64,000 nt of DNA from Candidatus Shapirobacteria bacterium (GCA_028700625.1 JAQVSI010000002.1:3276-67275); one strand, 5' to 3'; positions 5,207-26,136 are shown, numbered from the stretch's first letter. Translations and numbers: made by a program. The notes: generated from the letters alone by a model not told the origin.

Positions 5207-6752
5207 CAAAGATTTCTTTCGCCACATCATAAATATCTCCACCACCAGATTCACTTTTATTTTCCACAAATTGATCGCTCACATTTTCCATTGGAGTATC
5301 ATTTTTAATGACTAAAGGTTCTTTTTTATTTTTTCCCAAGACACATTCAAAACACAAATCAACTCCAAAAACTTTTGTCATACAGTCTTCTACTATTTTT
5401 CTATTTTTTGCTTCTTCCAATCTGTCTTTATGAAAGGGATAAAAAACTTCTAAAAGTAAGATTTTTCCTTTAATTGAACGTGGTCTAGATGCTCTCAAAA
5501 ACGCTTCTACTGAATGATTATAAGGTTTAATTGTCGTCAATAAATTTCTCCATTTCTCCTTAACTTTTTCAACCTCAATCGAACAATTTTTCATTTGTAC
5601 GGGCGTATTACAATACGCCTCTTCAGCTAAAACCTTCACTTCTTCTGTCTTTTCATCTGAGATCTGAGATCTGAAATCTGAAATATCGGGTTTGATATCT
5701 GAGATCTGAGATCTTTTTTGTCCCACAAACTCAACAACTGCCAATTCTAATGGCAACTGATCTATTTCTACTTCTTTTTCTTGTTTAGATGCTTTAACTA
5801 ATAAGTTTATAAAAAATTCAGATTCACTCAAATTTAAACCATTCTGGTTTTCAGAACCCAAACCATAAAAAGATAAAATTTTCTTTTGAAAAAAATTCAT
5901 TAATTTTAATCTAAAACTAGAAAAATCAATTCCCTCTGTTGCCATCTTTTCTAATTTTTCCAAAATTAATTTAATTTCACCTTTATCCAAATCTTTATCG
6001 AAATCTTCTTCACTATAATTACCACTCTTATCCAAATAAAACTTAAAAACTTCCTCTGACTTTAATTTTTTTCCCAACTGCAAATATAATTCATTAAAAT
6101 TTCTCTGCAAATTTCTAAAACTACCATCACTCTTTTCTATAATAAAATCAACTGCCTCCTTAGCAATTTCAATTCCTTCTCCATCAATAATTTTTTTAAG
6201 TGAATTATTTAAAGCATCTTTTCCACCTTTTCTAAAGTCAACCCTTACTAACCTCGATAATACTGTTTCAGGGATTTTTTCGGCATCAGTAGTGCACAAA
6301 ACAAAAATTGTATGTTTAGGCGGTTCCTCAATTAACTTTAGAAGTGCATTAAAAGCATCTTTAGTTAACATATGAACTTCGTCAATAATAAAAACTTTTT
6401 TAGTTAACTTACTTGGTAATAAATAAGCTTTATCTTTTAAACTTCGAACATCTTCAATTCCTCGGTTTGATGCTCCATCCATTTCAATAACATCCATCGC
6501 TGAACCTTTTAATATTTCTTTACAATTATCACATTTTCCACAAGGCTCGCCATCTTTCAAATCATTACAATTAGTTGCTCTGGCCAAAATTCTGGCTGCT
6601 GATGTTTTTCCCGATCCCTTTGGTCCAGAAAATAAAAAAGATTGAGGTACATCTTTAGCTGATAAAAATTTCTTCAAACTAATTGCCACATCGGTCAAAT
6701 CCAAATCTGAAAACTTAATTGGTCTATATTTTAAGTGAAAAACTGACATCAA
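5202..6752 (-). CDS. dnaX: DNA polymerase III subunit tau/gamma
   Basis: Walker A GPKGSGKTS and the Zn module CGKCDNCKEI. It carries in-frame heptamer repeats at 5655-5714 and a degenerate palindromic element at 5597-5619. Confidence 0.85.
   Translation of the reverse strand: MMSVFHLKYRPIKFSDLDLTDVAISLKKFLSAKDVPQSFLFSGPKGSGKTSAARILARATNCNDLKDGEPCGKCDNCKEILKGSAMDVIEMDGASNRGIEDVRSLKDKAYLLPSKLTKKVFIIDEVHMLTKDAFNALLKLIEEPPKHTIFVLCTTDAEKIPETVLSRLVRVDFRKGGKDALNNSLKKIIDGEGIEIAKEAVDFIIEKSDGSFRNLQRNFNELYLQLGKKLKSEEVFKFYLDKSGNYSEEDFDKDLDKGEIKLILEKLEKMATEGIDFSSFRLKLMNFFQKKILSFYGLGSENQNGLNLSESEFFINLLVKASKQEKEVEIDQLPLELAVVEFVGQKRSQISDIKPDISDFRSQISDEKTEEVKVLAEEAYCNTPVQMKNCSIEVEKVKEKWRNLLTTIKPYNHSVEAFLRASRPRSIKGKILLLEVFYPFHKDRLEEAKNRKIVEDCMTKVFGVDLCFECVLGKNKKEPLVIKNDTPMENVSDQFVENKSESGGGDIYDVAKEIFG
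5597..5619. repeat. palindromic element P1, a degenerate copy inside dnaX
   Basis: GTACGGGCGTATTACAATACGCC. It encodes AYCNTPVQ in the dnaX reading frame. Confidence 0.5.
5655..5714. repeat. ATCTGAG heptamer tandem repeats, two blocks inside dnaX
   Basis: CATCTGAGATCTGAGATCTGAAATCTGAAAT ... ATATCTGAGATCTGAGATCT. Confidence 0.6.
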
Positions 6753-6798
6753 AAGATTAAACCAAAATAGCTAATCTTTTACAATAATCGTAAGTGTA

Positions 6799-7161
6799 TC
6801 ATTTCAATAAATTTTCAACACCATGAATCAGCCAACTGTATAAAACAGTATCTAAATTCGACTTTTGAAATTTAATTTCGTACTTTAATTTTTGAGTGCA
6901 AATTACAATATCCCCCAATCTAATTTTCCCATCAGCATCCATTTTTTTTGACATAGGAAATCCTAAAACTTGAGGAATATAATCCATTTTTCGATAGTTA
7001 ATATTTAGATCACGAGCAACTTTTCTTCCCACAAATCTAATACTCAATTCCACATCTTTTATAAATCCTTTTTCTTTTAAAGCTTTAATAGCTAATCTCT
7101 CAATTAAATTCTTATCCAATCCAAAATTCTTATTATTATTTATTAAAATTATATTATCCAT
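6799..7161 (-). CDS. ybeY: rRNA maturation RNase YbeY-like; C-terminus looks truncated
   Basis: The ORF ends at LIHGVENLLK, just after the first His of the expected H..H..H motif. Confidence 0.45.
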   Translation of the reverse strand: MDNIILINNNKNFGLDKNLIERLAIKALKEKGFIKDVELSIRFVGRKVARDLNINYRKMDYIPQVLGFPMSKKMDADGKIRLGDIVICTQKLKYEIKFQKSNLDTVLYSWLIHGVENLLK

Positions 7162-7167
7162 TTTTTT

Positions 7168-7195
7168 GTACGGGCGTATTGCAATACGCCCCTAC
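7168..7195. repeat. palindromic element P2, the intergenic copy
   Basis: GTACGGGCGTATTGCAATACGCCCCTAC, with a perfect 8-bp stem GGGCGTAT/ATACGCCC. Confidence 0.6.
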
Positions 7196-7630
7196 CTATA
7201 TATTTTCTATTTTTTCTTTTACAATTTTTGAAATTAATCCACCATCCACTGTTCCACCAGTTTTAATCATCACTTCTTTCATAACAAATCCAAAATTATT
7301 CCCCTTATCTATTATCGCTTGGTTTACAATTTCTCTAACTTTTTCTTCACTGATATCTTCTGGTAAATATTCTTTAACTACTAAAATTTCATAATCTAAT
7401 TCGTCAACTAAATCTTGCCTGCCGCCTTTTAAAAACATTTCTCTTGATTCTTCCTTATTTTTTAATTCTTTTCTCAAAACCATCATCTCCTCAGCTTCTG
7501 TCAAAGCTCCGGGTGGCAGTTGTAATTCTTTTTTATCAATCAATGAAATCAAAAATCGCAACACATCCACCCGCTTATTATCACGGTTCTTCAACGCATT
7601 AAAACTATCTTGTTTTAATTTATTTCGCAT
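7196..7630 (-). CDS. GatB/YqeY domain protein
   Basis: YqeY-like sequence. The start was moved to the internal Met (MRNKLK) to avoid overlapping rpsU. Confidence 0.6.
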   Translation of the reverse strand: MRNKLKQDSFNALKNRDNKRVDVLRFLISLIDKKELQLPPGALTEAEEMMVLRKELKNKEESREMFLKGGRQDLVDELDYEILVVKEYLPEDISEEKVREIVNQAIIDKGNNFGFVMKEVMIKTGGTVDGGLISKIVKEKIENI

Positions 7631-7838
7631 CGTGTCTCCTAGAATTTTTTGCTTTTCGGCGACATTTATCTCGCCAAACAATTATTTTCTTTTTAGCATA
7701 TCTTTCTTCCGAAGGTTTAACATAAGAAGTTCTTTTTCTAACTTCCTCAGTAATATCCTCTTCCAAACAAAGTCTCCTAAATTTACCTATAATATCGTCT
7801 TTTGATTCTCCTTTATTTTTCTTTACTATAATTGGCAT
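7620..7838 (-). CDS. rpsU: 30S ribosomal protein S21
   Basis: 72 aa, very basic, with KRTSYVKPSEERYAKKK and an RRK-rich tail. Confidence 0.8.
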   Translation of the reverse strand: MPIIVKKNKGESKDDIIGKFRRLCLEEDITEEVRKRTSYVKPSEERYAKKKIIVWRDKCRRKAKNSRRHDAK

Positions 7839-7880
7839 TAAAAATTCACACCTCCTTTAATTAAAAGTTCCTTATTTTAC

Positions 7881-8573
7881 CTATAATTTACTATCTTGTA
7901 AACACTTTATTCTATCCATACTATTTGTTATTGGTAGGTTATTATAAGTACCACCAATTTGGCATTTGTCTACATTTGATGGGGTGACTGTTCCTTTTGA
8001 ACAAGAAATATAGTCTATACTGTTAACAACTCCATCTTTATTATAATCAGTTGTTTTGTCACAAGTAGAAGTATTATTAGTAGTTGTTGATGAAGAAGCC
8101 ACAGGTGCTAATGTTGTAACTGGATTAATTAGTGCTACAGTTGGAACCGGTGTTTCACTAGAAACAACTTCTGAAACCTCACCTTTAGTCTTAAAGCTAT
8201 ACATCATTCCCCCATTGTCAAAAACATTATCACTATCGACCACAATTTTATAATAGTAAGAAGTGTTACTTCTTAAATTAGTTAACAAAATATTGTGATT
8301 AATAGTTGGTTCAACATCTTCTGCCATTAAAAGTAAACTAGCCATATTTGTTCCGTAAAAAATCGAAGCTTTAATCGATTTATCTGTTATCCACGAAATT
8401 GTAGCCGTCTTGCCATCTTCACTAGGAACATTCGTTAAATTCTGAGGTTCGTAACCAGCAATAGCTCCACTCATAAAAGTTTTAGCCACATTCAAACCCA
8501 AAACAGACAAAATTATGACCAAAATCAAAATAGCAAAAATTATAACTGTCTTTAAACTAACTTTTCCCTTCAT
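7881..8573 (-). CDS. secreted or surface protein with an FN3-like domain and a C-terminal dockerin-like repeat
   Basis: Signal/TM N-terminus, an FN3-like YYYKIVV stretch, a Thr/Ser linker, then DYNKDGVVNSIDY matching the DxNxDGxVNxxD dockerin loop. Confidence 0.45.
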   Translation of the reverse strand: MKGKVSLKTVIIFAILILVIILSVLGLNVAKTFMSGAIAGYEPQNLTNVPSEDGKTATISWITDKSIKASIFYGTNMASLLLMAEDVEPTINHNILLTNLRSNTSYYYKIVVDSDNVFDNGGMMYSFKTKGEVSEVVSSETPVPTVALINPVTTLAPVASSSTTTNNTSTCDKTTDYNKDGVVNSIDYISCSKGTVTPSNVDKCQIGGTYNNLPITNSMDRIKCLQDSKL

Positions 8574-9253
8574 AAGAATTTTAAAAATAAAGCTGAAAGT
8601 ATACTAACAGCTCCAAAGACAATCAAACCAACAGTTGAAGCAATTCCTCCAGTCTGTGGTAATTCAGTTGTAGTTGCAGCAGGGGTAGTTGTTGGTGTCG
8701 AACTAGTAGTGGTACCAATTGTGCTATTTATCGTATAAGACCCGCTTCCATTAGCTGAACAAACAATAATGTCTTTAATTGGTGTTGTCTGAACGATATT
8801 TGAATCAGATGGTTGACCGTTACAAGTATAACTAACAATAGCCGTACCAGCTGCTTTTGCCTTAAAAGTAATAACCATTAAATTTCCATTTACCACTTCA
8901 TCACCAGCCGTCATTGAAGAATTACAACTTGCCGAAAATTTTCCAACAGGCCATTCATCTTGTTTATTAAAAGAACAAGATCCTCCAGTTGTTGTTTTAT
9001 TAAAAGCCATAGAAGTCGCTGTTTCTATTTTTGTTATTTCCAATTTAGTAGAATCAAAAGTTCCAATCATATCAACAGCTCCTGCTACTTGACCAGCTGA
9101 ATCAATCAACATGGTTACCGTAAAAGTATCATTAAGATTATATGTCCCTGTTGCAGGAGAAAAAGAAAGATTAGGATCAACTGCAGCTACAACATTACCC
9201 GACATCAACAAAAATGCCGCTGCTAAAAATAAATTCAATACTGTCTTTTTCAT
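8570..9253 (-). CDS. cell-wall-anchored cohesin-like protein (LPXTG)
   Basis: Signal peptide, a roughly 150-aa beta-rich domain with cohesin-like GTFDSTKLEI and ITFKAKAAG stretches, a TS-rich linker, then LPQTGG followed by a hydrophobic tail. Confidence 0.45.
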   Translation of the reverse strand: MKKTVLNLFLAAAFLLMSGNVVAAVDPNLSFSPATGTYNLNDTFTVTMLIDSAGQVAGAVDMIGTFDSTKLEITKIETATSMAFNKTTTGGSCSFNKQDEWPVGKFSASCNSSMTAGDEVVNGNLMVITFKAKAAGTAIVSYTCNGQPSDSNIVQTTPIKDIIVCSANGSGSYTINSTIGTTTSSTPTTTPAATTTELPQTGGIASTVGLIVFGAVSILSALFLKFL

Positions 9254-9255
9254 TT

Positions 9256-9861
9256 TTACTTAATTACATTAATTTCTAACTGATTACTAGCAAAAGGCAA
9301 AGCCTTAGCTGAAGTATTCTCTACAAATAGAGTAACAAATTTCTTATCTTCATTACCAGTAGCAACTTCAAACTTATATAAGCCAACTGTTTTTGCTTTA
9401 ACATCAAAACTAACTAAATTTACTAAATCATCAACATTAAAAGTAATTCCTTGTTTAGTCTCGATTAAATATTTAACCACAATCATTCCATCTTCTTTCA
9501 CTACCTTACCAATAATAGGTTTTTCTAATTTATCATCAAAAATCAATCCGCTAATCTCTAAATTCTTAGAATCATATTTGATTGCAATGTCTATTGCGTC
9601 TAAACTTTTCTTTTCTTTAACTAAAGCTTGTAATTTAATTTGATAATTTTTGCCAATTTTCATTTCTTTAGCATCTGTAACAAAAGACAAATCGAAATAA
9701 TTTTCATTTTTAACCTCTTGAATAATTTCATTTTTTTCAGCAATTACATCTGATGTAACAGTTTTCTTTTCTAGATTAGAAACCAGCATTATGCTTTCAA
9801 AAATAACTACTACAGCTATAACCGGTATTAAAGTTTTTAACATTTTGTTATTTGTTTCCAT
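9256..9861 (-). CDS. membrane-anchored cohesin-like protein
   Basis: N-terminal TM anchor, then IDIAIKYDSKNLEI and VSFDVKAK stretches that resemble cohesin strands. Confidence 0.4.
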   Translation of the reverse strand: METNNKMLKTLIPVIAVVVIFESIMLVSNLEKKTVTSDVIAEKNEIIQEVKNENYFDLSFVTDAKEMKIGKNYQIKLQALVKEKKSLDAIDIAIKYDSKNLEISGLIFDDKLEKPIIGKVVKEDGMIVVKYLIETKQGITFNVDDLVNLVSFDVKAKTVGLYKFEVATGNEDKKFVTLFVENTSAKALPFASNQLEINVIK

Positions 9862-9876
9862 TTTTTTAAATAATTT

Positions 9877-12015: not shown

Positions 12016-12060
12016 ATATCAACGTGTCACTTTTATATTAATCTGAAAATAAGCTGATTC

Positions 12061-12690: not shown

Positions 12691-12709
12691 TAATCAATGA
12701 TAACAGATT

Positions 12710-13780
12710 TTATTTTTTCAAAACTCGACCAATGTCTCCCACTGTAATCAACACAATCAAACTTAAAAGCAAAATCATTCCAATATTGTTTACTACCATT
12801 TCTAATTTTTGATTGGCTTTTTTCTTAAAAATCATTTCATAGAAAACAAAAATTATTCGACCTCCATCCAAAGCCGGAAAAGGTAAAACATTAACTATTG
12901 CCAAATTTACAGAAACTATTCCAAAAAAATGAACAACTGCTAAAAATCCTTGATTTTTATTAATTGCACTAGTTGCTTCAAACATTCCAATTGGACCACT
13001 AACATCTTTTGGAACATTCCCAGTAAATAATCCTCCAATCATTTTAAAAACACCATTTCCAATAATTTTTCCCCAAAAATAAGCTTCTTTAAAACCAGCC
13101 CCAATTCCTTCATAAAATCGATACCAAGGCACTTTAATCATCTCTGTGTTTGAAATAGCAATTCCAATTGCCCCTTCCCCTTCTGGTGGATTTGCTCTTA
13201 CTTCCACCTCTTTTTGTACGGGCGTATCGCCATACGCCCCTACAATCTCTAATTTGATATTTTCCCCTTTATATTTCCCAACCTCTGTTGTTAGTTCATC
13301 TGGTTTTTTAATTTCTTTATCTTGTACTTTCACGATAATGTCTTCTTCTTTCAATCCTGCTTTTTCAGCTGGTGAATTTTTTGCAATTCCAATAATCTTA
13401 ACTTTGTTTGTTTCGGTCGGCACTCCTAAAATTGTATAAACCACACTAAAAATTAAAATTGCCAAGACCAAATTCATGAACACTCCACCCAACACAATTA
13501 TTAACTTTTGCCATGGCTTTTTATGATTAAAAGAATTCCCTCCCTTACCATCACCATCTTCTCCATATAATTTACAAAATCCACCAATTGGTAACCAATT
13601 TATACTATATATAGTATCCCCAATTTTTTTACCAATTATTCTTGGAGGTAAACCCAAACCAAATTCTTCAACTCTGACTCCATTTTTTCTAGCTGCAAAA
13701 AAATGACCAAGTTCATGAACTAAAACTAAAATTGATAGCGCAACTATAAAAATTATCAAATCCATTCTTGATTTTAACAA
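12710..13780 (-). CDS. rseP: RIP metalloprotease RseP (M50 site-2 protease with PDZ)
   Basis: HELGHF zinc motif, a PDZ segment, and LDGG close to the C-terminus. The palindromic element at 13216-13243 lies in frame inside it. Confidence 0.8.
   Translation of the reverse strand: MLKSRMDLIIFIVALSILVLVHELGHFFAARKNGVRVEEFGLGLPPRIIGKKIGDTIYSINWLPIGGFCKLYGEDGDGKGGNSFNHKKPWQKLIIVLGGVFMNLVLAILIFSVVYTILGVPTETNKVKIIGIAKNSPAEKAGLKEEDIIVKVQDKEIKKPDELTTEVGKYKGENIKLEIVGAYGDTPVQKEVEVRANPPEGEGAIGIAISNTEMIKVPWYRFYEGIGAGFKEAYFWGKIIGNGVFKMIGGLFTGNVPKDVSGPIGMFEATSAINKNQGFLAVVHFFGIVSVNLAIVNVLPFPALDGGRIIFVFYEMIFKKKANQKLEMVVNNIGMILLLSLIVLITVGDIGRVLKK
13216..13243. repeat. palindromic element P3, inside rseP
   Basis: GTACGGGCGTATCGCCATACGCCCCTAC. 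It encodes GAYGDTPVQ in frame. Confidence 0.6.
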
Positions 13781-13794
13781 AACAAAACTTAAAA

Positions 13795-13872
13795 TTCGAA
13801 GTTATAATTTTTTGTGTCCTTGAACGTGCGACACACATTCACCAGACATAAAAAATTTGTAACGAGAATTTT
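13795..13872. repeat. intergenic ~80-95-nt repeat, family X, copy 1
   Basis: TTCGAAGTTATAATTTTTTGTG..GAACGTGCGACACACATTCACCAGACATAAAAAATTTGTAACGAGAATTTT. Confidence 0.55.
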
Positions 13873-13881
13873 AAGTTTTGT

Positions 13882-14433: not shown

Positions 14434-14450
14434 ATGTCAAATTATACCAA

Positions 14451-14510
14451 AAAAAAGCTCCCCTTCATCAAGGGGAGCTGGCGAGTAAAACGAGTCTGAG
14501 GAGTTTAAAT
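14451..14510. repeat. hairpin family, copy B
   Basis: Between tsf and frr. The hairpin GCTCCCCTTCATCAAGGGGAGC is followed by a T-run and then TATAAT on the minus strand. Confidence 0.5.
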
Positions 14511-14963: not shown

Positions 14964-14985
14964 ATTTTTAATTTTAAAAATTAAT

Positions 14986-15036
14986 GTCCTCCCTTCTTCA
15001 AGGGAGGATGTCCGTAAAACGGACAGGTGGGTTTAA
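14986..15036. repeat. hairpin family, copy C
   Basis: Between rpsB and tsf: TCCTCCCTTCTTCAAGGGAGGA plus GTCCGTAAAACGGAC. Confidence 0.5.
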
Positions 15037-16831: not shown

Positions 16832-18997
16832 ATGTCTGATACTGCCAATCTCTCGATATTTGAAGTCCGTTTACCCCAAAACAACGAACATACTTTTGAG
16901 TCAATGTCTGCCCTGCTTTCAAATTTTACCCAATTTTCAAGTCTTTCTTTCTTTGAAAAATTAATTGGCAAGAAAAAAACCATTGTTTCTCTAGAAATAG
17001 TTTTAAAAGAAGGTCAAATTCATTTCTATATTGCTGCTCTTTCCAACAATAGCGAATTTCTCCGTTCTCAAATCTTAGCTCAATATTCCACCGCCATTTT
17101 AAGAGACACAAAAGATTTCCTTCTCAATCTTGATCCAGAATTACCAATCACTTATACTCAACTTGGTTTAGCTAGATCCTACGATTATCCAGTCAAAACT
17201 GCTAAAGATTTCAAAGACACCGACCCTTTAACCTCTGTTCTCGCTCCCCTTTCTAGATCTAATAACATTAAAGATTTTTTTATGTTCCAAATTCTTCTAA
17301 GTGGAGCTCCAAAAAATTGGCAGAGTAATATAATTGGTACTATTCAAAACGGAATTTTGGTAGACCAAGAAAGAAACCTTCGCACTGCCCATCCCGATAA
17401 AGCTATTTTGGAACAAAAAATTCAATTTCCAGGTCTTTATACTCAAATGAATCTTCTTACCAACAACCCTGCTCTAATGGTTTCCGTTTCTTCCTCTTTT
17501 GGTGCCTACACTAATCCTCGTGGTAATTTTATTAAAAGCTTCACTCCAGGGTTTTTTACAAAAAAGAAACTTAAAGAATCAATTTACCTTCGTAAATTTA
17601 ATCCAAAATTAAAAAGTCAAATTTTTAACACCGAAGAATTAGCTGCCATTTGGCATTTTCCAAATCTAAACACTAAACTTCCCAACATTGCTTGGGGTAA
17701 AAAACTCTATTCTGACCCCCCTGAAAATCTTCCAATTGCTGACGATTTAACTGCAGAAGAAAAAAACAAAATCACCTTTTTTGCCAAAACTGAATATCGC
17801 AACAAAGATTCGATTTTTGGCATCAAAGAAGGCGAAGATCGCCGTCGCCACACCTATATTATCGGTAAATCTGGTACTGGTAAAACTACTCTTATCGCCA
17901 ATATGGCCATCGATGATATTCGTAAAGGTCGCGGTGTAGCTGTTATCGATCCTCATGGTGATTTATGCAATAACATTCTTGACTATATTCCTAGTAATCG
18001 TGTTAATGATTGTTGTTATTTCAACCCCGCCGATCCAGATTATGTCTATCCTCTAAACGTTTTAGAAACCAAAAATGAATCCCAAAAAGAGCTGATTGCT
18101 TCTGGTGTTCTCTCTATTTTTAAAAAGCTTTATGGAAATATTTCTTGGGGTCCTCGTCTTGAACATATTTTAAGAAATACTGTTTTAACTTTAGTCAACA
18201 CTCCAGGAAGCGATCTTACTCACATTGTCGAAATTTTAACCAATAAAAACTACCGAGAAAAAGTTGTTTCTAAATTAACCAATCAAACTTTAATTAATTT
18301 TTGGCAAAATGAATTTAGTAGAATGGATCCAAAATTTCAAAATGAAGCTGTTTCTCCTATTTTAAACAAAGTTGGCCAATTCATTTCTTCAACCAATATC
18401 AGAAATACTGTTGCTCATGCCAAATCAAAAATAAATATCCAAGAAATTATGGACCAAAAGAAAATTTTAATTGCCGATCTTTCGACTGGTCGTCTTGGTG
18501 AAGATAATTCTGCTCTTTTAGGTGCCATGTTAATTACTCAAATTCAACTTTCAGCCATGAATCGTGTTTTTCAAACCAGCGATGAACGTTCCGATTTTTA
18601 TCTCTATGTCGATGAATTCCAAAACTTTGCCACTGAGGCTTTTATTAAAATTCTTTCAGAAGCCCGTAAATTTAAATTAAATCTTATTGTTGCCAATCAA
18701 TACATGTCCCAATTGGACAAACCAATTCAAGATGCTATTCTAGGCAACATTGGTTCAATTATGTCTTTTGTGGTCGGTAATCAAGATGCTTTTATCCTTG
18801 CCAAAGAATTTGGACCTCAATTCCCACCAGAAGATTTAATCAAAATTGGTAAATATCAGATAGTCTGTAAACTTTCTATCGATTCTGAAACAACTCAACC
18901 TTTCTATGCCACCACCCTAGCTCCACTTTCTTGTAAAAATCAACAACGCGACAAATTAATCCACACCTCTCAAGAACGCTGGGGTAAAAAGAAGTAA
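16832..18997 (+). CDS. TraD/VirD4-like P-loop ATPase (T4SS coupling-protein or DUF87-like) with a ~330-aa N-terminal domain of unknown function
   Basis: Walker A IIGKSGTGKTTLIAN, Walker B LYVDEFQNF, and a C-terminal TraG-D-like region. There are no N-terminal TM helices. Confidence 0.5.
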   Translation: MSDTANLSIFEVRLPQNNEHTFESMSALLSNFTQFSSLSFFEKLIGKKKTIVSLEIVLKEGQIHFYIAALSNNSEFLRSQILAQYSTAILRDTKDFLLNLDPELPITYTQLGLARSYDYPVKTAKDFKDTDPLTSVLAPLSRSNNIKDFFMFQILLSGAPKNWQSNIIGTIQNGILVDQERNLRTAHPDKAILEQKIQFPGLYTQMNLLTNNPALMVSVSSSFGAYTNPRGNFIKSFTPGFFTKKKLKESIYLRKFNPKLKSQIFNTEELAAIWHFPNLNTKLPNIAWGKKLYSDPPENLPIADDLTAEEKNKITFFAKTEYRNKDSIFGIKEGEDRRRHTYIIGKSGTGKTTLIANMAIDDIRKGRGVAVIDPHGDLCNNILDYIPSNRVNDCCYFNPADPDYVYPLNVLETKNESQKELIASGVLSIFKKLYGNISWGPRLEHILRNTVLTLVNTPGSDLTHIVEILTNKNYREKVVSKLTNQTLINFWQNEFSRMDPKFQNEAVSPILNKVGQFISSTNIRNTVAHAKSKINIQEIMDQKKILIADLSTGRLGEDNSALLGAMLITQIQLSAMNRVFQTSDERSDFYLYVDEFQNFATEAFIKILSEARKFKLNLIVANQYMSQLDKPIQDAILGNIGSIMSFVVGNQDAFILAKEFGPQFPPEDLIKIGKYQIVCKLSIDSETTQPFYATTLAPLSCKNQQRDKLIHTSQERWGKKK

Positions 18998-18998
18998 A

Positions 18999-20996: not shown

Positions 20997-21024
20997 CTAT
21001 TCCCGACCAGCTGTCAACTACAAA

Positions 21025-21294
21025 TTACCTATTTTTGATCGATACTAAACCAATTTTTTCTTGTCCGCGAGTCACCAAAATATCAACAATTGTTCCATTT
21101 CCAGCCTTTTTTGCTTCATCCCAAAGACGATCTTCTGGATAATAACCCCTAACGTTTAATCTTTCTTCTCTACTATCACGGTGAACTGTTGCCACAAAGC
21201 CATCTCCATCTCTCAATAATTTTGACAACTCTACTCTTGATTTAAAATTTCCCACTTTATTCTTAAAAGCTTCTTTTATTTTTTCTAAACTCAT
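21025..21294 (-). CDS. hypothetical small protein, possibly OB-fold-like
   Basis: 89-aa ORF with no clear family. Confidence 0.3.
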   Translation of the reverse strand: MSLEKIKEAFKNKVGNFKSRVELSKLLRDGDGFVATVHRDSREERLNVRGYYPEDRLWDEAKKAGNGTIVDILVTRGQEKIGLVSIKNR

Positions 21295-21340
21295 TTTATT
21301 TTTAAAATATTATAGGCATATTATAATACTTTTTTTAAAA

Positions 21341-22978
21341 TTATTCTGAAATAATTTTTTTATCCACTTTTCTTGGAACAACCGTATTCGTTTCATCAAA
21401 CCATTCTTTCAAAATATCTCCCACAATTGGTGCCGCCACATCAGATCCTTCTCCTCCTCTCTCCACTAATACCGTAATTGAAATTTGCGGATCATCAGCT
21501 GGCGCAAAAGCCGTCAACCAAGCTTGAGTATCTTTACTACCATCACCAACTTCTGCCGTTCCTGTTTTACAAGCAATTTCTGTTTTAAAATTAAACAAAG
21601 GCCATGCCGTTCCACCCGATTTACAGGCATTTTTCATCCCCTGAACAATAGTTTCCCAGTTTTCATTTTTTATTTTTAAATCGGTACATTCCACCTTAGA
21701 ATCTTTCAAAACACTCATTTTGCATTTAACTCCCTTATTGGCAATAATATTAGTCATTTGATTAACCTGAAGTGGAGTAATACTTAAACCTCCTTGTCCT
21801 ATAGATAAATGATAAGTATCACCCAAATACCAATTTTCTCCCTTAACTTCTTTTTTCCATTTTTCATTTGGCACAATTCCATCCAATTCACCACTCAATT
21901 CCACTCCTGTCTTATTTCCGTAACCATATTTTTTAGTCCAATCATAAATTCTATTTAAACCCAATTTTTCTCCCAATTTATAAAAAAAGATATCATTTGA
22001 TCTCTGAATTGCTTTAATTATATTTACCATTCCATCACTTTTTCCACTCCAAGTCTTATAAGTATAATCTCCCACTTTTAAAACACCAATGTCTTCAATC
22101 TCTGTACTTTTATCTATCACTCCACTTTCAAGTCCTGCTGTTGCCATTACTATTTTAAATACTGATCCTGGACTATATCTTCCAGAAATTGTCCTATTCA
22201 TCATCGGCAAATTTTCATTGTCAGTTAAATATTCTTTAATTTTTTCTTGATTCGCATCATAAGAAAAAGCATTTGGATCAAAAGCTGGACTTGAAACCAT
22301 GTTAATTATCTTTCCGGTTTTTGGCTCACTAATTATCACTACTGCTTTTTTCCCATCTAAAAGTTTATAAATTTTCTCTTGCCAATAAGCATCTATCGAT
22401 AAATATAAATTTTTTGAAACTACAGGTTCTTGCCTTCCCAACTCTCTAACATACTTACCCCTAGCATCCACTTCAACCAATCTTCTTCCGTCAATTCCTC
22501 TAATTTGACAATCCAAAAATGATTCGATCCCACTTCTTCCCATCACCTCATTATCGCCCAATTTAATTTCACATTTGTTTTCATTTTTATCATCTTGATT
22601 AATTTTCCCCACATAGCCAGTAATAAAGGACATAGATTCCCCATATGGATAAAATCTTTTTAATTCATAAGCCAAATCTTTTCCCTCAAATTTATATCCA
22701 TGAAAATCTCCTACTCCTTCATAGATTTTACTGTCTCCATCCATTCTAAAATATTGATAAACACTTTTTGCTACAATTCTTCCTTTTCTATCCAAAATAA
22801 CTGACCTTGCTGCTGGAATTTTTTTTTCCATAAGCTTATTTTCTATGGCCAAATCTTTATAATATTTCCCTTTAACCACACTTAATTTCAAAATTGACAC
22901 CAAAATAATTCCCAAACTTAAAATTAAGCCAAATTTCATTAACCAATATTTCCAAGAACTGTCGTCTATTTGGTTCAT
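21341..22978 (-). CDS. mrdA: penicillin-binding protein 2 / peptidoglycan D,D-transpeptidase
   Basis: N-terminal TM helix and a KTGTAEV box. It sits directly downstream of mreB. Confidence 0.75.
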   Translation of the reverse strand: MNQIDDSSWKYWLMKFGLILSLGIILVSILKLSVVKGKYYKDLAIENKLMEKKIPAARSVILDRKGRIVAKSVYQYFRMDGDSKIYEGVGDFHGYKFEGKDLAYELKRFYPYGESMSFITGYVGKINQDDKNENKCEIKLGDNEVMGRSGIESFLDCQIRGIDGRRLVEVDARGKYVRELGRQEPVVSKNLYLSIDAYWQEKIYKLLDGKKAVVIISEPKTGKIINMVSSPAFDPNAFSYDANQEKIKEYLTDNENLPMMNRTISGRYSPGSVFKIVMATAGLESGVIDKSTEIEDIGVLKVGDYTYKTWSGKSDGMVNIIKAIQRSNDIFFYKLGEKLGLNRIYDWTKKYGYGNKTGVELSGELDGIVPNEKWKKEVKGENWYLGDTYHLSIGQGGLSITPLQVNQMTNIIANKGVKCKMSVLKDSKVECTDLKIKNENWETIVQGMKNACKSGGTAWPLFNFKTEIACKTGTAEVGDGSKDTQAWLTAFAPADDPQISITVLVERGGEGSDVAAPIVGDILKEWFDETNTVVPRKVDKKIISE

Positions 22979-24087
22979 TCTTTTAATCCAGACACCAATT
23001 TAACTTGTTTTAACATCTCTCTGTTTTGAATCAATTCACCACAACCTTTAATTACCATCATTCCTGCTTCTTCCAAAACCCTAGTAAAAATTTTTGTCTC
23101 ACTCTCGATTAATTGCGCTAAACCATTTATTTTCCCCCCATTTCCCACTAAAATAATTCCTCTTTTTAATATATCTTCCATCAATTCTGGAGGTGTTTCA
23201 TCCAAAACCGTTGAAACTAATTTAACTATTTTTATTAACTCCATAGCCATCGCTTCTTTTATTTCCGTCTCTGTTATTCTAACTGTTTTTGGCAAACCAC
23301 TTTCCAAGTCTCGACCTCTCACCAAAGCTGTTTTTTTCTCCCCATCTTTATCTAAATTACCAGTTTCCATTTTTATTTTTTCAGCACCATTAACTCCAAT
23401 CAATATTCCGTATTTCATCTTCACGTAGTTAATAATACTAATGTCTAGATCATTACCAGCTGTTTTAATTCCTCTCCCAACAACCACTCCTCCCATTGAA
23501 ATTACACTTACTTCAGTTTTGCCTCCCCCCACATCCACAATAACCAAACCAGAACAACTATCAGTAGGTAAACCAATCCCAATTGCTGCCAAAACCACTT
23601 CTTCCAAGAGAACAACTTCTTTTGCTCCAGCATTTAAAAAAATAGATTTTACAGCTCTTTTTTGAACTTGGTTAATTGAACTTGGCACTCCTACAATTAC
23701 TTTTGGTTTAAAAAACTTAGGATATTTAGACGGAATTTCATAAATAAGCTTTAAGTAATAAGAAATCAAACTTTCCAGTGCCTCCAAATCAGAAATAACT
23801 CCATTTTTGATAGGACTTACAACTTCGATTTGTTTTGGTTCTCGATTAAGCATTTCTTTGGCTTTAAAACCAAAAGCAATTGGTCCACTTTTTTTTGATT
23901 TTGGTGCCGATAACCCTGTCCATCTCTTTTTTTTCTGACGAGCAATCATAGTTGGTTCATCAATAATCACTCCTCTGTCTTTTAAATAGATCAAAGTATT
24001 ACTACTACCAAGATCAACTCCAACTTCCCAACTAAAAAGTGAGAAAAATATTTTTATTTTATTCTTTAGTAATGCAAACTTGGTCAC
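22975..24087 (-). CDS. mreB: rod shape-determining protein MreB (with insertions)
   Basis: Actin-fold motifs DLGSSNTLIY and VIVDVGGGKTEV. Confidence 0.8.
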   Translation of the reverse strand: MTKFALLKNKIKIFFSLFSWEVGVDLGSSNTLIYLKDRGVIIDEPTMIARQKKKRWTGLSAPKSKKSGPIAFGFKAKEMLNREPKQIEVVSPIKNGVISDLEALESLISYYLKLIYEIPSKYPKFFKPKVIVGVPSSINQVQKRAVKSIFLNAGAKEVVLLEEVVLAAIGIGLPTDSCSGLVIVDVGGGKTEVSVISMGGVVVGRGIKTAGNDLDISIINYVKMKYGILIGVNGAEKIKMETGNLDKDGEKKTALVRGRDLESGLPKTVRITETEIKEAMAMELIKIVKLVSTVLDETPPELMEDILKRGIILVGNGGKINGLAQLIESETKIFTRVLEEAGMMVIKGCGELIQNREMLKQVKLVSGLKE

Positions 24088-24132
24088 TTTAAAATTATAA
24101 CAAGTTAGAGCTCTTAAGTTACAATAGAACTT

Positions 24133-26136
24133 ATGAAGTCTTTTATTAAGTCTGTTCGTTTTCTGTTTTTGACCCTCTTTTTTGTCACTCCTTTAATTTT
24201 TACCCAGTCCAATTCCGAGCTTTTCGAATTACCAAAAATGTATTTTGTATATCTTTTAACCATTTTAATAACTACTTTTCATCTAGTTAATGTCTTTAAA
24301 AAACAAGCTCCTCTATTTAAAAAAACTTTTCTAGACATCCCTTTGCTTTTATTTCTAATTTCTCAAATAATTTCCACTATTTATTCAATCGATCCTCATA
24401 CTTCCTTTTTTGGTTATTACTCCAGACTTAATGGCGGTCTTTTATCGTTAATCTGTTATGCCCTTTTGTACTGGATTCTTTCGATTTACATCAATTCTAA
24501 TTTCAAAAAACAAATCATTAATTTTTCATTACTTTCCGGTTTTTTAATTTCTATTTATGCTATTGCCCAGCATTTTGGTATCGATAAAAATTTATGGGTT
24601 CAAGACGTTCAATCTCGAGTTTTTTCCACCCTCGGCCAACCAAATTGGCTCGCCGCCTATCTTTGTATCCTACTTCCATTTTCTATTTACAAATTTTTTC
24701 AATCAATCAATACGTACGGGCGTATTGCCATACGCCCCTATCTTTATTTATTTTTAACATTAATTTTTTATATTTCTATTCTTTTCACCAAATCCAAATC
24801 TGGTATCATTGCCTGCCTCATTTCCCTTTTTGTATACTTCACCTTCTCTTTCTTAAAAAACAAAAATTCTCGAAAATTGTTAATTCTTAATTATTCATTA
24901 TTAATTATTCTTTCGCTTTTAATCGCTAATCCAATCAAAGATCAACTTTTCCCTCCTAAATTGGAAATTGGAAATTCGACATTAGAAATTAATAACAAAT
25001 TAAACATTACCCCCTCAGGTGATATCCGAAAAATTGTTTGGACTGGCGCCGTTGATCTTTGGAAAAAATTTCCTATTTTTGGCACTGGTGTTGAAACTTT
25101 TGCGTATTCCTATTATTGGACTCGTCCTGTTAAACATAATTTAACCTCTGAATGGGATTTTCTCTACAACAAAGCCCATAACGAATATATTAATTATCTA
25201 GCCACCACCGGTGCCATCGGTCTAATCACTTATTCAATTTTAATATTTACTTTTCTTTTTTCTTTAATCAAAAATTTAATTAGAAATTGGAAATTAGAAA
25301 TTGAAAATTTATCTCTAGTTATTTTAACTTCATATATTTCTATTCTCATTACCAATGCCGCCGGCTTCTCTGTAGTTTCCACTTCACTTTTCTTCTTCCT
25401 CCTCCCCGCTCTTTTAATTCCCGATCAAAATACTAAAGTAGAGACGTTGCATGCAACGTCTCTACACAAATTCTTAATTATTCCTCTAATTTTAATTAGT
25501 TTTATCTTCACTAAAAGAATAATCTTCTTTTATCTAGCCGACATTGCCTACAGCCAAGCCGAAACTTATGATTCTAGAAATAATTATAAAACTGCTCTTT
25601 CTTATCTTCAAATAAGTCATCAGTTCAACCCCAAAGAACCCTTATATACTGACAAACTAGCTACTATTTACTCAAAAATTGCTTTAAATAGTGAAAAACA
25701 AGAAGATATCGACAAATCTATAAATTATTCTAATCTAACTATTAAAATTTCTCCTAGTAATATTAATTTTTGGAAAGAACGAGCTCAAGTTTATCTTTAT
25801 CTTTCAGGAGTTGATTCAAAATATTTTTCCGAAGCCATTATTTCTCTCGATAAAGCTAGTCTTTTAGCCCCAACCGACGCCAAAATTTATTATTCAATTG
25901 GTCAATTCCTAGAAACTGCCAGTCTTCAAAAAGAAGCTATTCCTTATTATCAAAAAGCCATTGAATTAAAACCAAATTACGATTATGCCTATTTTGCTCT
26001 GGGCAAAATTTATTTATCTCAAAAAGAAAATATATTAGCTAAAAAAAATCTACAAAAAGCCGTTGATTATTCTTATCCCACCAACTCCGAAGCCGAAAGA
26101 CTACTTAAAACCATTTTCCCTGCCACCTCTTTATAA
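24133..26136 (+). CDS. O-antigen ligase / Wzy-like polytopic membrane protein with C-terminal TPR repeats
   Basis: About 12 TM helices followed by TPR repeats (AYFALGKIYL). It contains the palindromic element at 24714-24741 and heptamer repeats at 24958-24990 and 25279-25310. Confidence 0.5.
   Translation: MKSFIKSVRFLFLTLFFVTPLIFTQSNSELFELPKMYFVYLLTILITTFHLVNVFKKQAPLFKKTFLDIPLLLFLISQIISTIYSIDPHTSFFGYYSRLNGGLLSLICYALLYWILSIYINSNFKKQIINFSLLSGFLISIYAIAQHFGIDKNLWVQDVQSRVFSTLGQPNWLAAYLCILLPFSIYKFFQSINTYGRIAIRPYLYLFLTLIFYISILFTKSKSGIIACLISLFVYFTFSFLKNKNSRKLLILNYSLLIILSLLIANPIKDQLFPPKLEIGNSTLEINNKLNITPSGDIRKIVWTGAVDLWKKFPIFGTGVETFAYSYYWTRPVKHNLTSEWDFLYNKAHNEYINYLATTGAIGLITYSILIFTFLFSLIKNLIRNWKLEIENLSLVILTSYISILITNAAGFSVVSTSLFFFLLPALLIPDQNTKVETLHATSLHKFLIIPLILISFIFTKRIIFFYLADIAYSQAETYDSRNNYKTALSYLQISHQFNPKEPLYTDKLATIYSKIALNSEKQEDIDKSINYSNLTIKISPSNINFWKERAQVYLYLSGVDSKYFSEAIISLDKASLLAPTDAKIYYSIGQFLETASLQKEAIPYYQKAIELKPNYDYAYFALGKIYLSQKENILAKKNLQKAVDYSYPTNSEAERLLKTIFPATSL
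24714..24741. repeat. palindromic element P4, inside the O-antigen-ligase-like gene
   Basis: GTACGGGCGTATTGCCATACGCCCCTAT. It encodes TYGRIAIRPY in frame. Confidence 0.6.
24958..24990. repeat. TTGGAAA heptamer repeats
   Basis: AAATTGGAAATTGGAAATTCGACATTAGAAATT. Confidence 0.45.
25279..25310. repeat. TTGGAAA / TTAGAAA heptamer repeats
   Basis: TTAGAAATTGGAAATTAGAAATTGAAAATTT. Confidence 0.45.

What the first reader, a model, noticed from the sequence alone, without database searches (positions are those of the whole stretch)
5597..24741. A 28-nt perfect palindrome inserted in frame into essential genes, analogous to Rickettsia palindromic elements
Seen in the sequence: four copies of (TTTTT)GTACGGGCGTAT-N4-ATACGCCCCTAC. 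The stem GGGCGTAT/ATACGCCC is perfect, and the 4-nt loop varies (TGCA, CGCC, TGCC). The copies are at 5597-5619 (degenerate), 7168-7195, 13216-13243 and 24714-24741, all in the same plus-strand orientation. Three copies lie inside ORFs without breaking the frame. In dnaX the element encodes AYCNTPVQ. In rseP it encodes GAYGDTPVQ. In the O-antigen-ligase-like gene, read on the other strand, it encodes TYGRIAIRPY. The window is about 30% GC, so these GC-rich palindromes stand out against the background. Established knowledge: Rickettsia palindromic elements are selfish palindromes that insert in frame into protein-coding genes. Inference: this is a comparable mobile palindrome family. I am not aware of a description of such elements in this kind of reduced, CPR-like genome.
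Basis: partly seen in the sequence, partly recalled or inferred. Interest (0 to 1): 0.8.

Follow-up and report, generated by a model that had tools for sequence, protein, structure and literature searches.

The report
Widespread REP palindrome inside CPR genes
The four GC-rich 28-base hairpins are copies of a known kind of small bacterial repeat (a GTAG-tagged "double-foot" REP, the type linked to RAYT tyrosine transposases) that occurs almost unchanged in dozens of phyla; the new point is that this tiny Shapirobacteria genome keeps them mostly in frame inside genes.

Summary
There are four copies of GTACGGGCGTAT-N4-ATACGCCCCTAC, all on the + strand, and none is expected by chance. Three lie in frame in dnaX, rseP and a Wzy_C gene. 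The fourth fills the yqeY-ybeY spacer. The copies are not perfect 28-nt palindromes, because the outer "feet" carry one conserved mismatch.

The element is not specific to CPR. The same 28-mer (consensus GTAG-GGGCGTAT-NGCN-ATACGCCC-CTAC) occurs in genomes of dozens of phyla with GC from 0.30 to 0.69, and in viral contigs. In 13 of the fetched loci it lies inside or beside a Y1/HUH transposase gene (NHxH, WQRNYYEH, YIxNNP). This matches TnpAREP subclass 2.4 (RAYT group 4), which is published as carrying "double-foot" REPs that insert in frame. Intragenic REPs are also published.

Related Shapirobacteria show that these are lineage-specific insertions:
- the yqeY-ybeY spacer is 0-7 nt in four relatives, against 34 nt here;
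- short rseP loops exist in orthologues;
- Wzy homologues of 57% identity or less lack the segment.

Orthologous sites in relatives carry other REP families with the same feet.

No RAYT gene was found in the window or in about 198 kb of related sequence, so current mobility in this genome is inferred, not shown.

Verdict: a new member of a known kind, of moderate interest.

The parts
5597..5624 (-). REP copy 1, degenerate. The - strand reads GAAGAGGCGTATTGTAATACGCCCGTAC. It lies in frame in the dnaX linker between the ATPase domains and DnaX_C and encodes EEAYCNTPVQ.
   Evidence: It is absent at this position in five relatives, whose dnaX linkers carry other palindromes at other positions (L291).
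7168..7195 (-). REP copy 2. The - strand reads GTAGGGGCGTATTGCAATACGCCCGTAC. It is intergenic and fills the spacer between the yqeY stop and the ybeY start.
   Evidence: The spacer is 0-7 nt in L056-L059 and 34 nt here. The relative L260 has the copy at the same site, 27/28 identical, while the flanks are about 79% identical.
13216..13243 (-). REP copy 3. The - strand reads GTAGGGGCGTATGGCGATACGCCCGTAC. It lies in frame in the beta-hairpin loop of the RseP PDZ domain and encodes VGAYGDTPVQ.
   Evidence: Orthologues with a short loop exist. Other orthologues carry degenerate remnants or other double-foot palindromes at the same codon position.
24714..24741 (-). REP copy 4. The + strand reads GTACGGGCGTATTGCCATACGCCCCTAT. 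It lies in frame in a loop between transmembrane helices of the Wzy_C/TPR protein, which is on the + strand, and encodes YGRIAIRPY. The GTAG-head strand is antisense to this gene.
   Evidence: The 71%-identical orthologue (L292) has GTACGGGCGAATCATGATTCGCCCCTAC at the same site. All 41 more distant homologues aligned lack the segment.
25438..25465 (.). Sister-family double-foot palindrome GTAGAGACGTTGCATGCAACGTCTCTAC, a perfect 28-nt palindrome. It lies in frame in the same Wzy_C gene and encodes VETLHATSLH.
   Evidence: absent from P0359 and the other homologues. The family is widespread. Relatives carry members in cysS (L059) and in dnaX (L057, L291).
5202..6752 (-). dnaX, host of copy 1.
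   Evidence: DNA_pol3_delta2 and DnaX_C.
6799..7161 (-). ybeY, downstream neighbour of copy 2.
7196..7681 (-). yqeY-like gene, upstream neighbour of copy 2.
12710..13780 (-). rseP (M50 peptidase with a PDZ domain), host of copy 3.
24133..26136 (+). Gene for a Wzy_C (O-antigen-ligase-like) protein with TPR repeats, host of copy 4 and of the sister palindrome.

Best explanation
The elements are REPs (repetitive extragenic palindromes) of the GTAG-tagged 'double-foot' type. This is the 28-nt hairpin family that travels with RAYT / TnpAREP subclass 2.4 (Bertels group 4) Y1-HUH tyrosine transposases.

Proposed mechanism (inferred from the IS200/IS605 and TnpAREP literature, not shown here): the hairpin forms on single-stranded DNA at the replication fork. 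A RAYT recognises the GTAG foot and the stem, then cleaves and rejoins the DNA, which copies the hairpin to new sites.

In a genome with almost no intergenic space, the copies that survive are those in tiny spacers or, in frame, in tolerant protein loops and linkers: the dnaX linker, the RseP PDZ hairpin and a Wzy loop. Once a site is occupied it stays occupied for long periods, and its sequence can be replaced by another REP family with the same feet.

Shown here: family identity, insertion status, association with RAYT genes in other genomes, and a strand bias. Inferred: that a RAYT acts, or once acted, in this genome.
For: 1. Real repeat. There are four copies and none is expected by chance. 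The single strands fold with DNA energies of -6.5 to -10.2 kcal/mol, z-scores -3.5 to -4.8.

2. Same 28-mer in many lineages. It also occurs in 55 viral-contig stretches and 105 metagenome stretches. In the genome loci the flanks are GTAG in 80 and CTAC in 92 of about 146 copies, the loop is NGCN, and locus GC ranges from 0.30 to 0.69.

3. RAYT association.
- A locally built HMM finds NHxH...WQRNYYEH...YIxNNP proteins in 8 of 120 genome loci and 5 of 105 metagenome loci, with the REP inside the ORF or within about 200 nt of it.
- Of 120 homologues of one such protein, 36 encode the REP core as GAY..TP, GV..YAP or GRI.IRP.
- Source databases name these proteins 'REP element-mobilizing transposase RayT', with Pfam PF01797.
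- The motifs, the double-foot REP and the in-frame REP inside the gene are the published signature of subclass 2.4 (PMC6006769).

4. Insertion status.
- The yqeY-ybeY gap is 0-7 nt in L056-L059.
- Short rseP loops exist in close orthologues.
- The Wzy segment is present only in the 71% orthologue.

5. Several REP families with identical feet occupy the same loops in relatives. The sister families are themselves widespread.

6. Strand bias. All hybrid-foot copies in Shapirobacteria have the same orientation on the chromosome. Across unrelated contigs, the GTAC...CTAC strand is the C-rich strand in 34 of 42 cases. This is what a fork-coupled, single-strand mechanism predicts.

7. RAYTs of this class exist in Patescibacteria: P0207 (locus L285), which has a 28-nt palindrome inside the gene, and P0260.
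Against: - No RAYT-like ORF was found in the 64-kb window, in 3.2 kb beyond its start, or in about 198 kb of related Shapirobacteria sequence. That sequence is largely the same syntenic region, so the test is weak. No Shapirobacteria-named RAYT appears in the top-120 lists.
- The window copies have GTAG...GTAC feet rather than the canonical GTAG...CTAC.
- A 28-nt element cannot by itself preserve a reading frame. The net length difference in rseP against the short-loop form is only 5 codons, so simple cut-and-paste of 28 nt does not describe the events.
- Transposition of REPs by RAYTs remains a hypothesis in the literature (PMC3733652, PMC8266576).
- Copy 2 is 27/28 identical between genomes that are about 79% identical. 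The Wzy copy differs from its orthologue by a compensatory stem change. Both could reflect selection on the hairpin rather than transposase activity.
- The GC-skew bias includes some orthologous loci. It also cannot separate replication strand from coding strand.
Confidence: 0.72

Rival explanations
1. The copies are relic REPs. A RAYT-driven burst happened in an ancestor of this Shapirobacteria clade, or after a transient acquisition, and the transposase has since been lost. The copies are now immobile passengers that persist because they sit in tolerant loops. Similarity between copies is kept by gene conversion or by recombination between populations.
For: - No RAYT was found in any Shapirobacteria sequence examined.
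- The copies in the yqeY-ybeY spacer, in Wzy and in rseP are shared with relatives that are 71-83% identical in protein or 75-79% identical in DNA, so they are old.
- Degenerate remnants are seen in L056-L058.
- Loop types in rseP have a very patchy phylogenetic distribution, which suggests allele exchange.
- Loss of the RAYT with retention of REPs is reported for many E. coli strains (PMC3733652).
Against: - Three of the four copies keep perfect 8-bp stems, although neighbouring sequence has diverged 20-25% between relatives.
- Copy 1 and the palindrome at 25438 are absent from the nearest relatives, so they are more recent gains.
- Different REP families sit at the same sites, which implies repeated events.
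Confidence: 0.3
2. The hairpin is kept for a host function, whatever its origin. Possibilities are an mRNA stability or RNase-processing element, a DNA-binding site for a dimeric protein, or a replication or topology signal.
For: - Copy 2 is 27/28 conserved where the flanks are about 79% identical.
- The Wzy copy and its orthologue differ by a compensatory T-A to A-T stem pair, while all four loop bases differ.
- The sequence is near-identical across phyla.
- The literature attributes such roles to REPs (abstracts).
Against: - In the direction of transcription the hairpin is followed by an A-run, not a U-run, and the scan does not call it a terminator.
- No Rfam family matches.
- Copies decay at the rseP site in L056-L058.
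- Copy positions share no common gene context.
- The 'compensatory' variant equals another widespread REP family, GGGCGAAT..ATTCGCCC. Replacement therefore explains it as well as selection does.
Confidence: 0.15
3. The segments are ancient conserved peptide motifs of the host proteins, and the DNA palindromy is incidental. Alternatively, the matches are chance or an assembly artefact.
For: The peptide YGRI(A/M)IRPY is shared by two Wzy orthologues. Related peptides recur at the rseP site.
Against: - No match is expected by chance.
- The same DNA appears in an intergenic spacer and on the antisense strand of a gene.
- Orthologues without the segment exist.
- The same strain was assembled independently in JGI contigs L181, L250 and L293 with identical copies.
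- The identical DNA is read in different frames in unrelated proteins.
Confidence: 0.02

Closest known systems
'Double-foot' long REPs associated with TnpAREP subclass 2.4 (RAYT group 4): Quentin, Siguier, Chandler & Fichant 2018, BMC Genomics 19:475 (PMC6006769); Bertels et al. 2017 (PMC5581495)
   Same: - 5' GT[AG]G foot with its reverse complement at the 3' end, and a GC-rich stem.
[quoted passage not shown]
- Low copy number.
- Patchy distribution over many phyla.
- The RAYTs found next to this 28-mer have the subclass motifs NH[IFV]H / WQ / YIxNNP.
   Different: - Here the host is a CPR (Ca. Shapirobacteria) genome.
- The 3' foot is GTAC instead of CTAC.
- No cognate RAYT was found in the sequence available.
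- Three of the four copies are intragenic.
- In the sections read, the paper does not report that one specific 28-mer is nearly invariant across phyla.
GTAG-tagged REP superfamily and intragenic REPs: Di Nocera, De Gregorio & Rocco 2013, BMC Genomics 14:522 (PMC3733652)
   Same: - 20-40 bp stem-loops tagged by GTAG.
- Found in Cyanobacteria, Chloroflexi, the PVC group and Proteobacteria.
- In-frame REPs inside genes, many of them replication or repair genes (dnaE, uvrA/B), encoding short peptide inserts.
   Different: - In that paper the GTAG tag is unpaired at one end; here it is mirrored at the other end.
- This sequence is not in their supplementary lists.
- CPR genomes were not covered.
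Rickettsia palindromic elements (RPE; Ogata et al. 2000, cited from memory and through PMC3733652)
   Same: Palindromic repeats inserted in frame into protein-coding genes, including essential ones, in a reduced genome.
   Different: - RPE-1 is roughly 100-150 bp (from memory). RPE-4 and RPE-6 are CGTC-tagged according to PMC3733652.
- There is no sequence similarity.
- RPEs are restricted to Rickettsia, whereas this 28-mer is found across bacteria and is linked to a RAYT.
E. coli REP/BIME with TnpAREP (RayT/YafM): Messing et al. 2012 (PMC3479197); Corneloup et al. 2021 (PMC8266576)
   Same: A GTAG guide tetranucleotide at the foot of a hairpin, recognised on single-stranded DNA by a Y1-HUH enzyme.
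   Different: - E. coli REPs are bulged, are about 35 nt, number in the hundreds, are extragenic and are organised in BIMEs.
- Their transposase belongs to subclass 2.2, and they are species-specific sequences.
IS200/IS605 elements (IS608, ISDra2)
   Same: Y1-HUH chemistry, recognition of a hairpin on the lagging-strand template, and an orientation bias relative to replication (background in PMC6006769). The GC-skew bias resembles this.
   Different: Those are autonomous elements that carry tnpA, with or without tnpB, between two different hairpins. Here there is a single 28-nt hairpin with no coding capacity.

Membership tests
GTAG-tagged / double-foot REP (TnpAREP subclass 2.4 type) | A short (20-40 nt) GC-rich stem-loop that folds as a single strand. 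| tested here: met
   28 nt, 8-bp perfect stem (7 bp in copy 1) and a 4-nt loop. DNA folding energy is -6.5 to -10.2 kcal/mol with z-scores of -3.5 to -4.8.
GTAG-tagged / double-foot REP (TnpAREP subclass 2.4 type) | A 5' GT[AG]G tetranucleotide at the foot of the hairpin. | tested here: met
   The - strand reads GTAG in copies 2 and 3, ATAG in copy 4 and GAAG in copy 1. GTAG is present in 80 of about 146 copies in other genomes.
GTAG-tagged / double-foot REP (TnpAREP subclass 2.4 type) | A 3' C[TC]AC foot, the reverse complement of the 5' foot ('double foot'). | tested here: inconclusive
   In the window one foot is canonical and the other has a G/C change (the - strand reads GTAG...GTAC), which gives a mismatch. 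The canonical GTAG...CTAC form dominates elsewhere, with CTAC in 92 of about 146 copies. The hybrid and the GTAC/GTAC forms also occur beside RAYT genes (L182, L185, L090).
GTAG-tagged / double-foot REP (TnpAREP subclass 2.4 type) | Multiple dispersed copies in the genome. | tested here: met
   Four copies plus one sister-family copy in 64 kb, with none expected by chance. The genome-wide count could not be tested because only one contig is available.
GTAG-tagged / double-foot REP (TnpAREP subclass 2.4 type) | A cognate RAYT/TnpAREP gene in the same genome, flanked by or containing the REP (a REPtron). | not testable with these tools
The feature is met in other genomes: 13 loci have a RAYT at or around the REP, and 36 of 120 RAYT homologues encode the REP core.
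GTAG-tagged / double-foot REP (TnpAREP subclass 2.4 type) | The associated transposase carries the subclass motifs NH[IFV]H, WQ and YIxNNP. | tested here: met
   The sequences show MPNH[IFL]HGI, WQRNYYEH and YIxNNP. One protein hits PF01797 in Pfam, and many homologues carry precomputed PF01797. This was tested on other genomes, not on this one.
Rickettsia palindromic elements (RPE) | Sequence and size relation to the RPE families, and restriction to Rickettsia. | tested here: not met
   The element is 28 nt, GTAG-tagged and found in dozens of phyla. RPE-4 and RPE-6 are CGTC-tagged and RPE-1 is longer (PMC3733652). Only the in-frame behaviour is shared.
Intrinsic terminator | A GC-rich hairpin followed by a U-run in the direction of transcription. 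| tested here: not met
   On the coding (-) strand the hairpin is followed by AAAAAAA. The terminator scan does not report it.
CRISPR repeat | Regularly spaced direct repeats separated by unique spacers. | tested here: not met
   The window copies are 1.5-11 kb apart and lie inside genes. A few other genomes show arrays with periods of 55-130 nt (L097, L104, L145). These were not examined.

The most novel reading that the evidence does not exclude
In Shapirobacteria, and perhaps in CPR generally, REPs behave as site-locked, strand-locked residents of protein loops. The same codon positions in rseP, dnaX and Wzy are occupied in different lineages by different 28-29-nt double-foot families that share GTAG...GTAC feet. 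All are oriented the same way relative to GC skew.

This would mean that an existing REP foot is itself the preferred target for replacement by the REP family currently active. It would point to ongoing RAYT-type, replication-coupled single-strand exchange, and to REPs as a source of loop diversification in essential proteins of streamlined genomes. The near-invariance of the 28-mer across phyla would then be explained by its being carried in frame inside the RAYT gene that spreads it.
Probability: 0.3. Interest if true: 0.6.

Novelty: new member of a known kind. Interest (0 to 1): 0.36.

Why it matters
This finding reclassifies an apparently novel 'CPR palindrome' as a member of a REP family that spans many bacterial phyla and is linked to RAYT group 4. 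That prevents a false novelty claim.

Three points are of real, though moderate, interest:
1. REPs, normally 'extragenic', persist in an ultra-compact CPR genome mainly as in-frame inserts in core genes (dnaX, rseP).
2. Orthologous sites carry different REP families with conserved feet. This gives a tractable natural experiment on REP turnover and concerted evolution.
3. The single asymmetric base in the feet gives these near-palindromes an orientation. That orientation correlates with GC skew across unrelated genomes, which is a testable prediction of replication-coupled single-strand mobilisation by RAYTs. That mechanism is still unproven.

There is also a practical point for annotators. Peptides such as GAYCNTP(L/V)Q, GVLQYAPT and YGRIAIRPY in otherwise unrelated proteins mark REP insertions, not homology.

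Tried and rejected
- **Alternative genetic code or a split dnaX at 7168-7195.** Rejected. The flanking ORFs are yqeY and ybeY, and table 11 gives dense long ORFs.
- **Rfam.** No family matches at the elements, at either the gathering or the E<=1 threshold.
- **Terminator or promoter role.** The scans give no support.
- **Literature search** for the peptides, for the 20-mer, and for CPR combined with in-frame palindromes. No hits. The sequence is not in the supplementary files of Di Nocera et al..
- **Looking for a Shapirobacteria RAYT by name.** Two protein searches returned only two 'Patescibacteria group' entries and none labelled Shapirobacteria. Only the top 120 hits are shown, so this is inconclusive.
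- **Taxonomy of the low-GC REPtron contig L182/L289.** Its gene content is not obviously CPR, and the question was left unresolved. L288 is clearly not CPR.
- **Simple 28-nt insertion model for rseP.** The length difference from the short-loop form is only 5 codons, and loop types are patchy on an NJ tree. The history there is more complex than one insertion, and I could not resolve it.
- **Whether intragenic location is unusual for this family.** Across 234 copies in other genomes, 41% lie in an open frame of at least 100 codons, against 78% for random positions. Intragenic copies are therefore depleted relative to random positions but remain common.

Full report
**Observation.** The core GGGCGTAT-N4-ATACGCCC occurs four times in the window, always on the + strand. 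Three matches are exact and one has a single mismatch. None of 100 dinucleotide-preserving shuffles gave any match. With their flanks the copies are 28-mers at 5597-5624, 7168-7195, 13216-13243 and 24714-24741. The window has 32% GC, a strongly negative GC skew on the + strand throughout, and most genes on the - strand.

Pfam identifies the host genes:
- dnaX, 5202-6752, - strand
- ybeY, 6799-7161, - strand
- a yqeY-like gene, 7196-7681, - strand
- rseP (M50 peptidase with PDZ), 12710-13780, - strand
- a Wzy_C protein with TPR repeats, 24133-26136, + strand

Copy 1 encodes EEAYCNTPVQ in the dnaX linker, just before DnaX_C. Copy 3 encodes VGAYGDTPVQ at the end of the RseP PDZ domain. Copy 4 encodes YGRIAIRPY in a loop of the Wzy_C protein, read from the opposite strand. 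Copy 2 is not in a gene; it fills the 34-nt gap between the yqeY stop and the ybeY start.

The element is not a perfect 28-nt palindrome. It has an 8-bp stem, a 4-nt loop and 4-nt feet that pair except for one conserved mismatch. The + strand reads GTAC...CTAC and the - strand reads GTAG...GTAC. As single-stranded DNA the copies fold at -6.5 to -10.2 kcal/mol. A hairpin scan also found a fifth 28-nt palindrome of a different family, GTAGAGACGTTGCATGCAACGTCTCTAC, at 25438-25465. It lies in frame in the same Wzy_C gene.

**Source and relatives.** The RseP protein is identical to one from a MAG labelled Candidatus Shapirobacteria (CPR/Patescibacteria), on a 67.8-kb contig. Independent JGI and Logan contigs of the same strain carry the same sequence (L181, L250, L293, L294). 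The elements are therefore not an assembly artefact.

**The element is not CPR-specific.** Scans of the public collections with the 20-nt core gave:
- 55 stretches in viral contigs;

The hosts include Salinibacteraceae, Planctomycetes, Cyanobacteria, Chloroflexota, Bacteroidota, Atribacterota, Omnitrophota, Nitrospirota, Desulfobacterota, Zixibacteria, Cloacimonadota, Firestonebacteria, and the CPR lineages Kuenenbacteria and Falkowbacteria. Locus GC ranges from 0.30 to 0.69. In the genome loci the flanks are GTAG in 80 and CTAC in 92 of about 146 copies, and the loop is mostly NGCN (TGCA 49, GGCC 20). The consensus is therefore the perfect 28-nt palindrome GTAGGGGCGTATTGCAATACGCCCCTAC. A metagenome scan for the window's own variant (TTGTAC foot) returned 105 stretches, again over the whole GC range.

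**Association with a transposase.**
- A tblastn with E. coli RayT, followed by a locally built HMM, found Y1/HUH proteins in 8 of the 120 genome loci and 5 of the 105 metagenome loci. These proteins carry the motifs MPNH[IFL]HGI, WQRNYYEH and YIxNNP.
- In those loci the palindrome lies inside the ORF, between the HUH and WQ motifs, or within about 200 nt of it. For example, L091 encodes ...CRGVLQYAPT..., L090 encodes ...VRAYGHTPVP..., and L182 has a perfect copy about 150 nt upstream plus a degenerate copy inside the gene.
- Among 120 homologues of the L182 protein, 36 encode the REP core as GAY..TP, GV..YAP or GRI.IRP in the variable region.
- Source databases call these proteins 'REP element-mobilizing transposase RayT' or 'REP-associated tyrosine transposase', and many carry PF01797.

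**Match to the literature.**
- Quentin et al. 2018 (PMC6006769) define TnpAY1 subclass 2.4, which equals Bertels group 4. Its features are the motifs NH[IFV]H / WQ / YIxNNP; 'long, double foot' REPs with 5' GT[AG]G and 3' C[TC]AC; REPs inserted in frame within the tnpAREP gene itself; and a host range of Cyanobacteria, Bacteroidetes and scattered other phyla.
- Bertels et al. 2017 (PMC5581495) report group 4 in 17 bacterial classes, associated with low-copy flanking 16-mers.
- Di Nocera et al. 2013 (PMC3733652) describe the GTAG-tagged REP superfamily. They also describe in-frame intragenic REPs, many in replication and repair genes, and they class RPE-4 and RPE-6 among the tagged REPs.

The window's elements therefore belong to a known kind. 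I found no paper that mentions them in CPR.

**Are the copies insertions?**
- *yqeY-ybeY spacer.* In four syntenic relatives (L056-L059) the two genes overlap or are 0-7 nt apart, against 34 nt here. A relative that is about 79% identical (L260) has the element at the same place, 27/28 identical.
- *rseP.* In an alignment of 120 orthologues (68-100% identical), the site is a hypervariable loop. Many orthologues have a short form (LVINDNKLVNVEVR). Others have degenerate remnants of the same element, as in L056-L058, which keep ...CGCCCGTACA.
- *rseP, other palindromes.* Some orthologues carry a different double-foot palindrome at the same codon position. L290 has GTAGGGAACGGTTTAAAACCGTTCCGTAC and L291 has GAGGGACAGACACAAAAGTCTGTCCGTAC.
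- *dnaX.* Copy 1 is absent from five relatives, but their linkers carry other palindromes at other positions. L260 has GTAGGGGTGAATCATGATTCGCTCGTAC, L057 has GTAGAGACGATTCATGAATCGTCAGTAC and L291 has GTAGAGACGCCAAGCATGGCGTCTCTAC.
- *Wzy.* Of 42 representative homologues, only the closest one (71% identical) has the segment. Its DNA reads GTACGGGCGAATCATGATTCGCCCCTAC. That is the same feet and orientation, a stem with one compensatory pair changed, and a different loop.

The GGGCGAAT..ATTCGCCC variant and the GTAGAGACG...CGTCTCTAC family are themselves widespread, with GTAG/CTAC feet. The simplest reading is that several related REP families circulate, and that occupied sites are re-used or overwritten. 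In-situ compensatory evolution under selection for the hairpin cannot be excluded.

**Orientation.** The only asymmetry of the element is the G/C at the fourth base of one foot. All four window copies share the same orientation on the chromosome even though the Wzy gene is on the other strand. So do the hybrid-foot copies of other families in L260, L290 and L292. The GTAG-head strand is the G-rich strand.

In the fetched loci from other organisms, the strand reading GTAC...CTAC is the C-rich strand in 34 of 42 cases (binomial p about 7e-5). By my own rough grouping of loci with shared flanks, which was not computed, this is about 25 of 31. This is what is expected if copies are made on one template strand at the replication fork, as for IS200/IS605 elements (background in PMC6006769). 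However, GC skew in short contigs also follows coding strand, so the test is suggestive only.

One side effect: the canonical GTAG foot puts a TAG stop in one reading frame. The window's GTAC variant removes that stop on the + strand, and the Wzy gene reads exactly that frame. This is read directly from the sequence.

**What is not shown.**
- No RAYT-like ORF exists in the window, in the 3.2 kb beyond its start (L293), or in about 198 kb of Shapirobacteria sequence examined. That sequence is mostly the same syntenic region.
- RAYTs of this class do occur in Patescibacteria. P0207 lies in a housekeeping context and has a 28-nt palindrome inside the gene; P0260 is a second example. None labelled Shapirobacteria was seen.
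- Whether these copies are still mobile, are relics, or are kept for a host function is therefore open.
- The elements are not terminator-like and match no Rfam family.
- A 28-nt element cannot by itself keep a reading frame, and the rseP loop differs from the short form by only 5 codons. The actual events are therefore more complex than a clean 28-nt insertion.
- Across other genomes, 41% of copies lie in an open frame of at least 100 codons, against 78% for random positions. Intragenic copies are common for this family, though depleted relative to random positions.

**Verdict.** The interpretation as a mobile, in-frame palindrome is partly supported. The claim of an undescribed, CPR-type family is not supported: this is the double-foot REP associated with RAYT group 4 / TnpAREP subclass 2.4, here in a new host lineage and mostly intragenic. 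The points worth following up are the re-use of the same protein loops by different REP families, the strand-locked asymmetry, and the near-invariance of the 28-mer across phyla. A plausible explanation for that near-invariance is that the 28-mer is carried in frame inside the transposase gene that spreads it; this is my inference. Interest is moderate.

Noticed in passing
window 25438-25465: A second 28-nt perfect palindrome of a different family, GTAGAGACGTTGCATGCAACGTCTCTAC. It lies in frame in the same Wzy_C gene and encodes VETLHATSLH. It is absent from the 71% orthologue. Family members occur in cysS (L059 19937-19964) and in dnaX (L057, L291) of relatives, and in 116 viral-contig stretches.
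   Followed up: partly
window 13200-13260 (rseP PDZ loop); proteins P0001-P0120: The PDZ beta-hairpin loop of Shapirobacteria RseP is hypervariable. It has a handful of recurrent 'cassettes': INDNK, YQVSQVEKE, NNEELKIYNKE, EEGQTQKSVRT, SNDQLKNKE, GGASHASPVQ and VGNGLKPFRT. On an NJ tree these are distributed very patchily, which suggests recurrent insertion or replacement, or recombination between populations. At least three of the cassettes are palindromic at the DNA level.
   Followed up: partly
L260 8373-8401 (corresponds to the N-terminal part of ybeY, about window 7040-7070): The 79%-identical relative carries an extra double-foot palindrome, GTACGGAACGGTTTTAAACCGTTCCCTAT, about 100 nt from the shared yqeY-ybeY copy. 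It has the same orientation as the other copies. It is absent from the window.
   Followed up: no
L097 35-251, L104 4-319, L145 32-309: In a Firestonebacteria, a Flavobacteriaceae and a Muribaculaceae contig, the same REP core occurs in short head-to-tail arrays with spacings of about 55-87, 84-128 and 57-68 nt. Each array begins within 35 nt of the contig start. These could be BIME-like clusters or something CRISPR-like.
   Followed up: no
window 14456-14479, 14987-15008, 36109-36171, 61605-61675: Another family of intergenic hairpins has arms that contain Shine-Dalgarno-like GGAGG/CCTCC, for example AGCTCCCCTTGATGAAGGGGAGCT between tsf and frr, and the pair CCCCTCCTTTGAC..AAAGGAGGGG followed by TCTCCCTTTAG..CAAAGGGAGA. 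Similar hairpins sit at the same intergenic places in L056, L057 and L291. They may be terminators or translational elements.
   Followed up: no
fetched loci L005-L282: Across unrelated contigs, the hybrid-foot form GTAC...CTAC lies on the C-rich strand in 34 of 42 cases. This orientation bias relative to GC skew is what a mechanism acting on one replication template strand would predict.
   Followed up: partly
window 45656-45731 (-), 57901-58019 (+), 30388-30679 (+), 33242-33829 (-): Rfam and ARAGORN annotate an AdoCbl-II riboswitch, an L10 leader and five tRNAs (Thr x2, Ser, Trp, Ala). These are ordinary features.
   Followed up: no
window 16832-18997 (+): A 721-aa protein whose orthologues in the syntenic relatives carry DUF8128, DUF87 and TrwB_AAD_bind. 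It is a conserved ATPase of unknown role, on the opposite strand to its neighbours.
   Followed up: no
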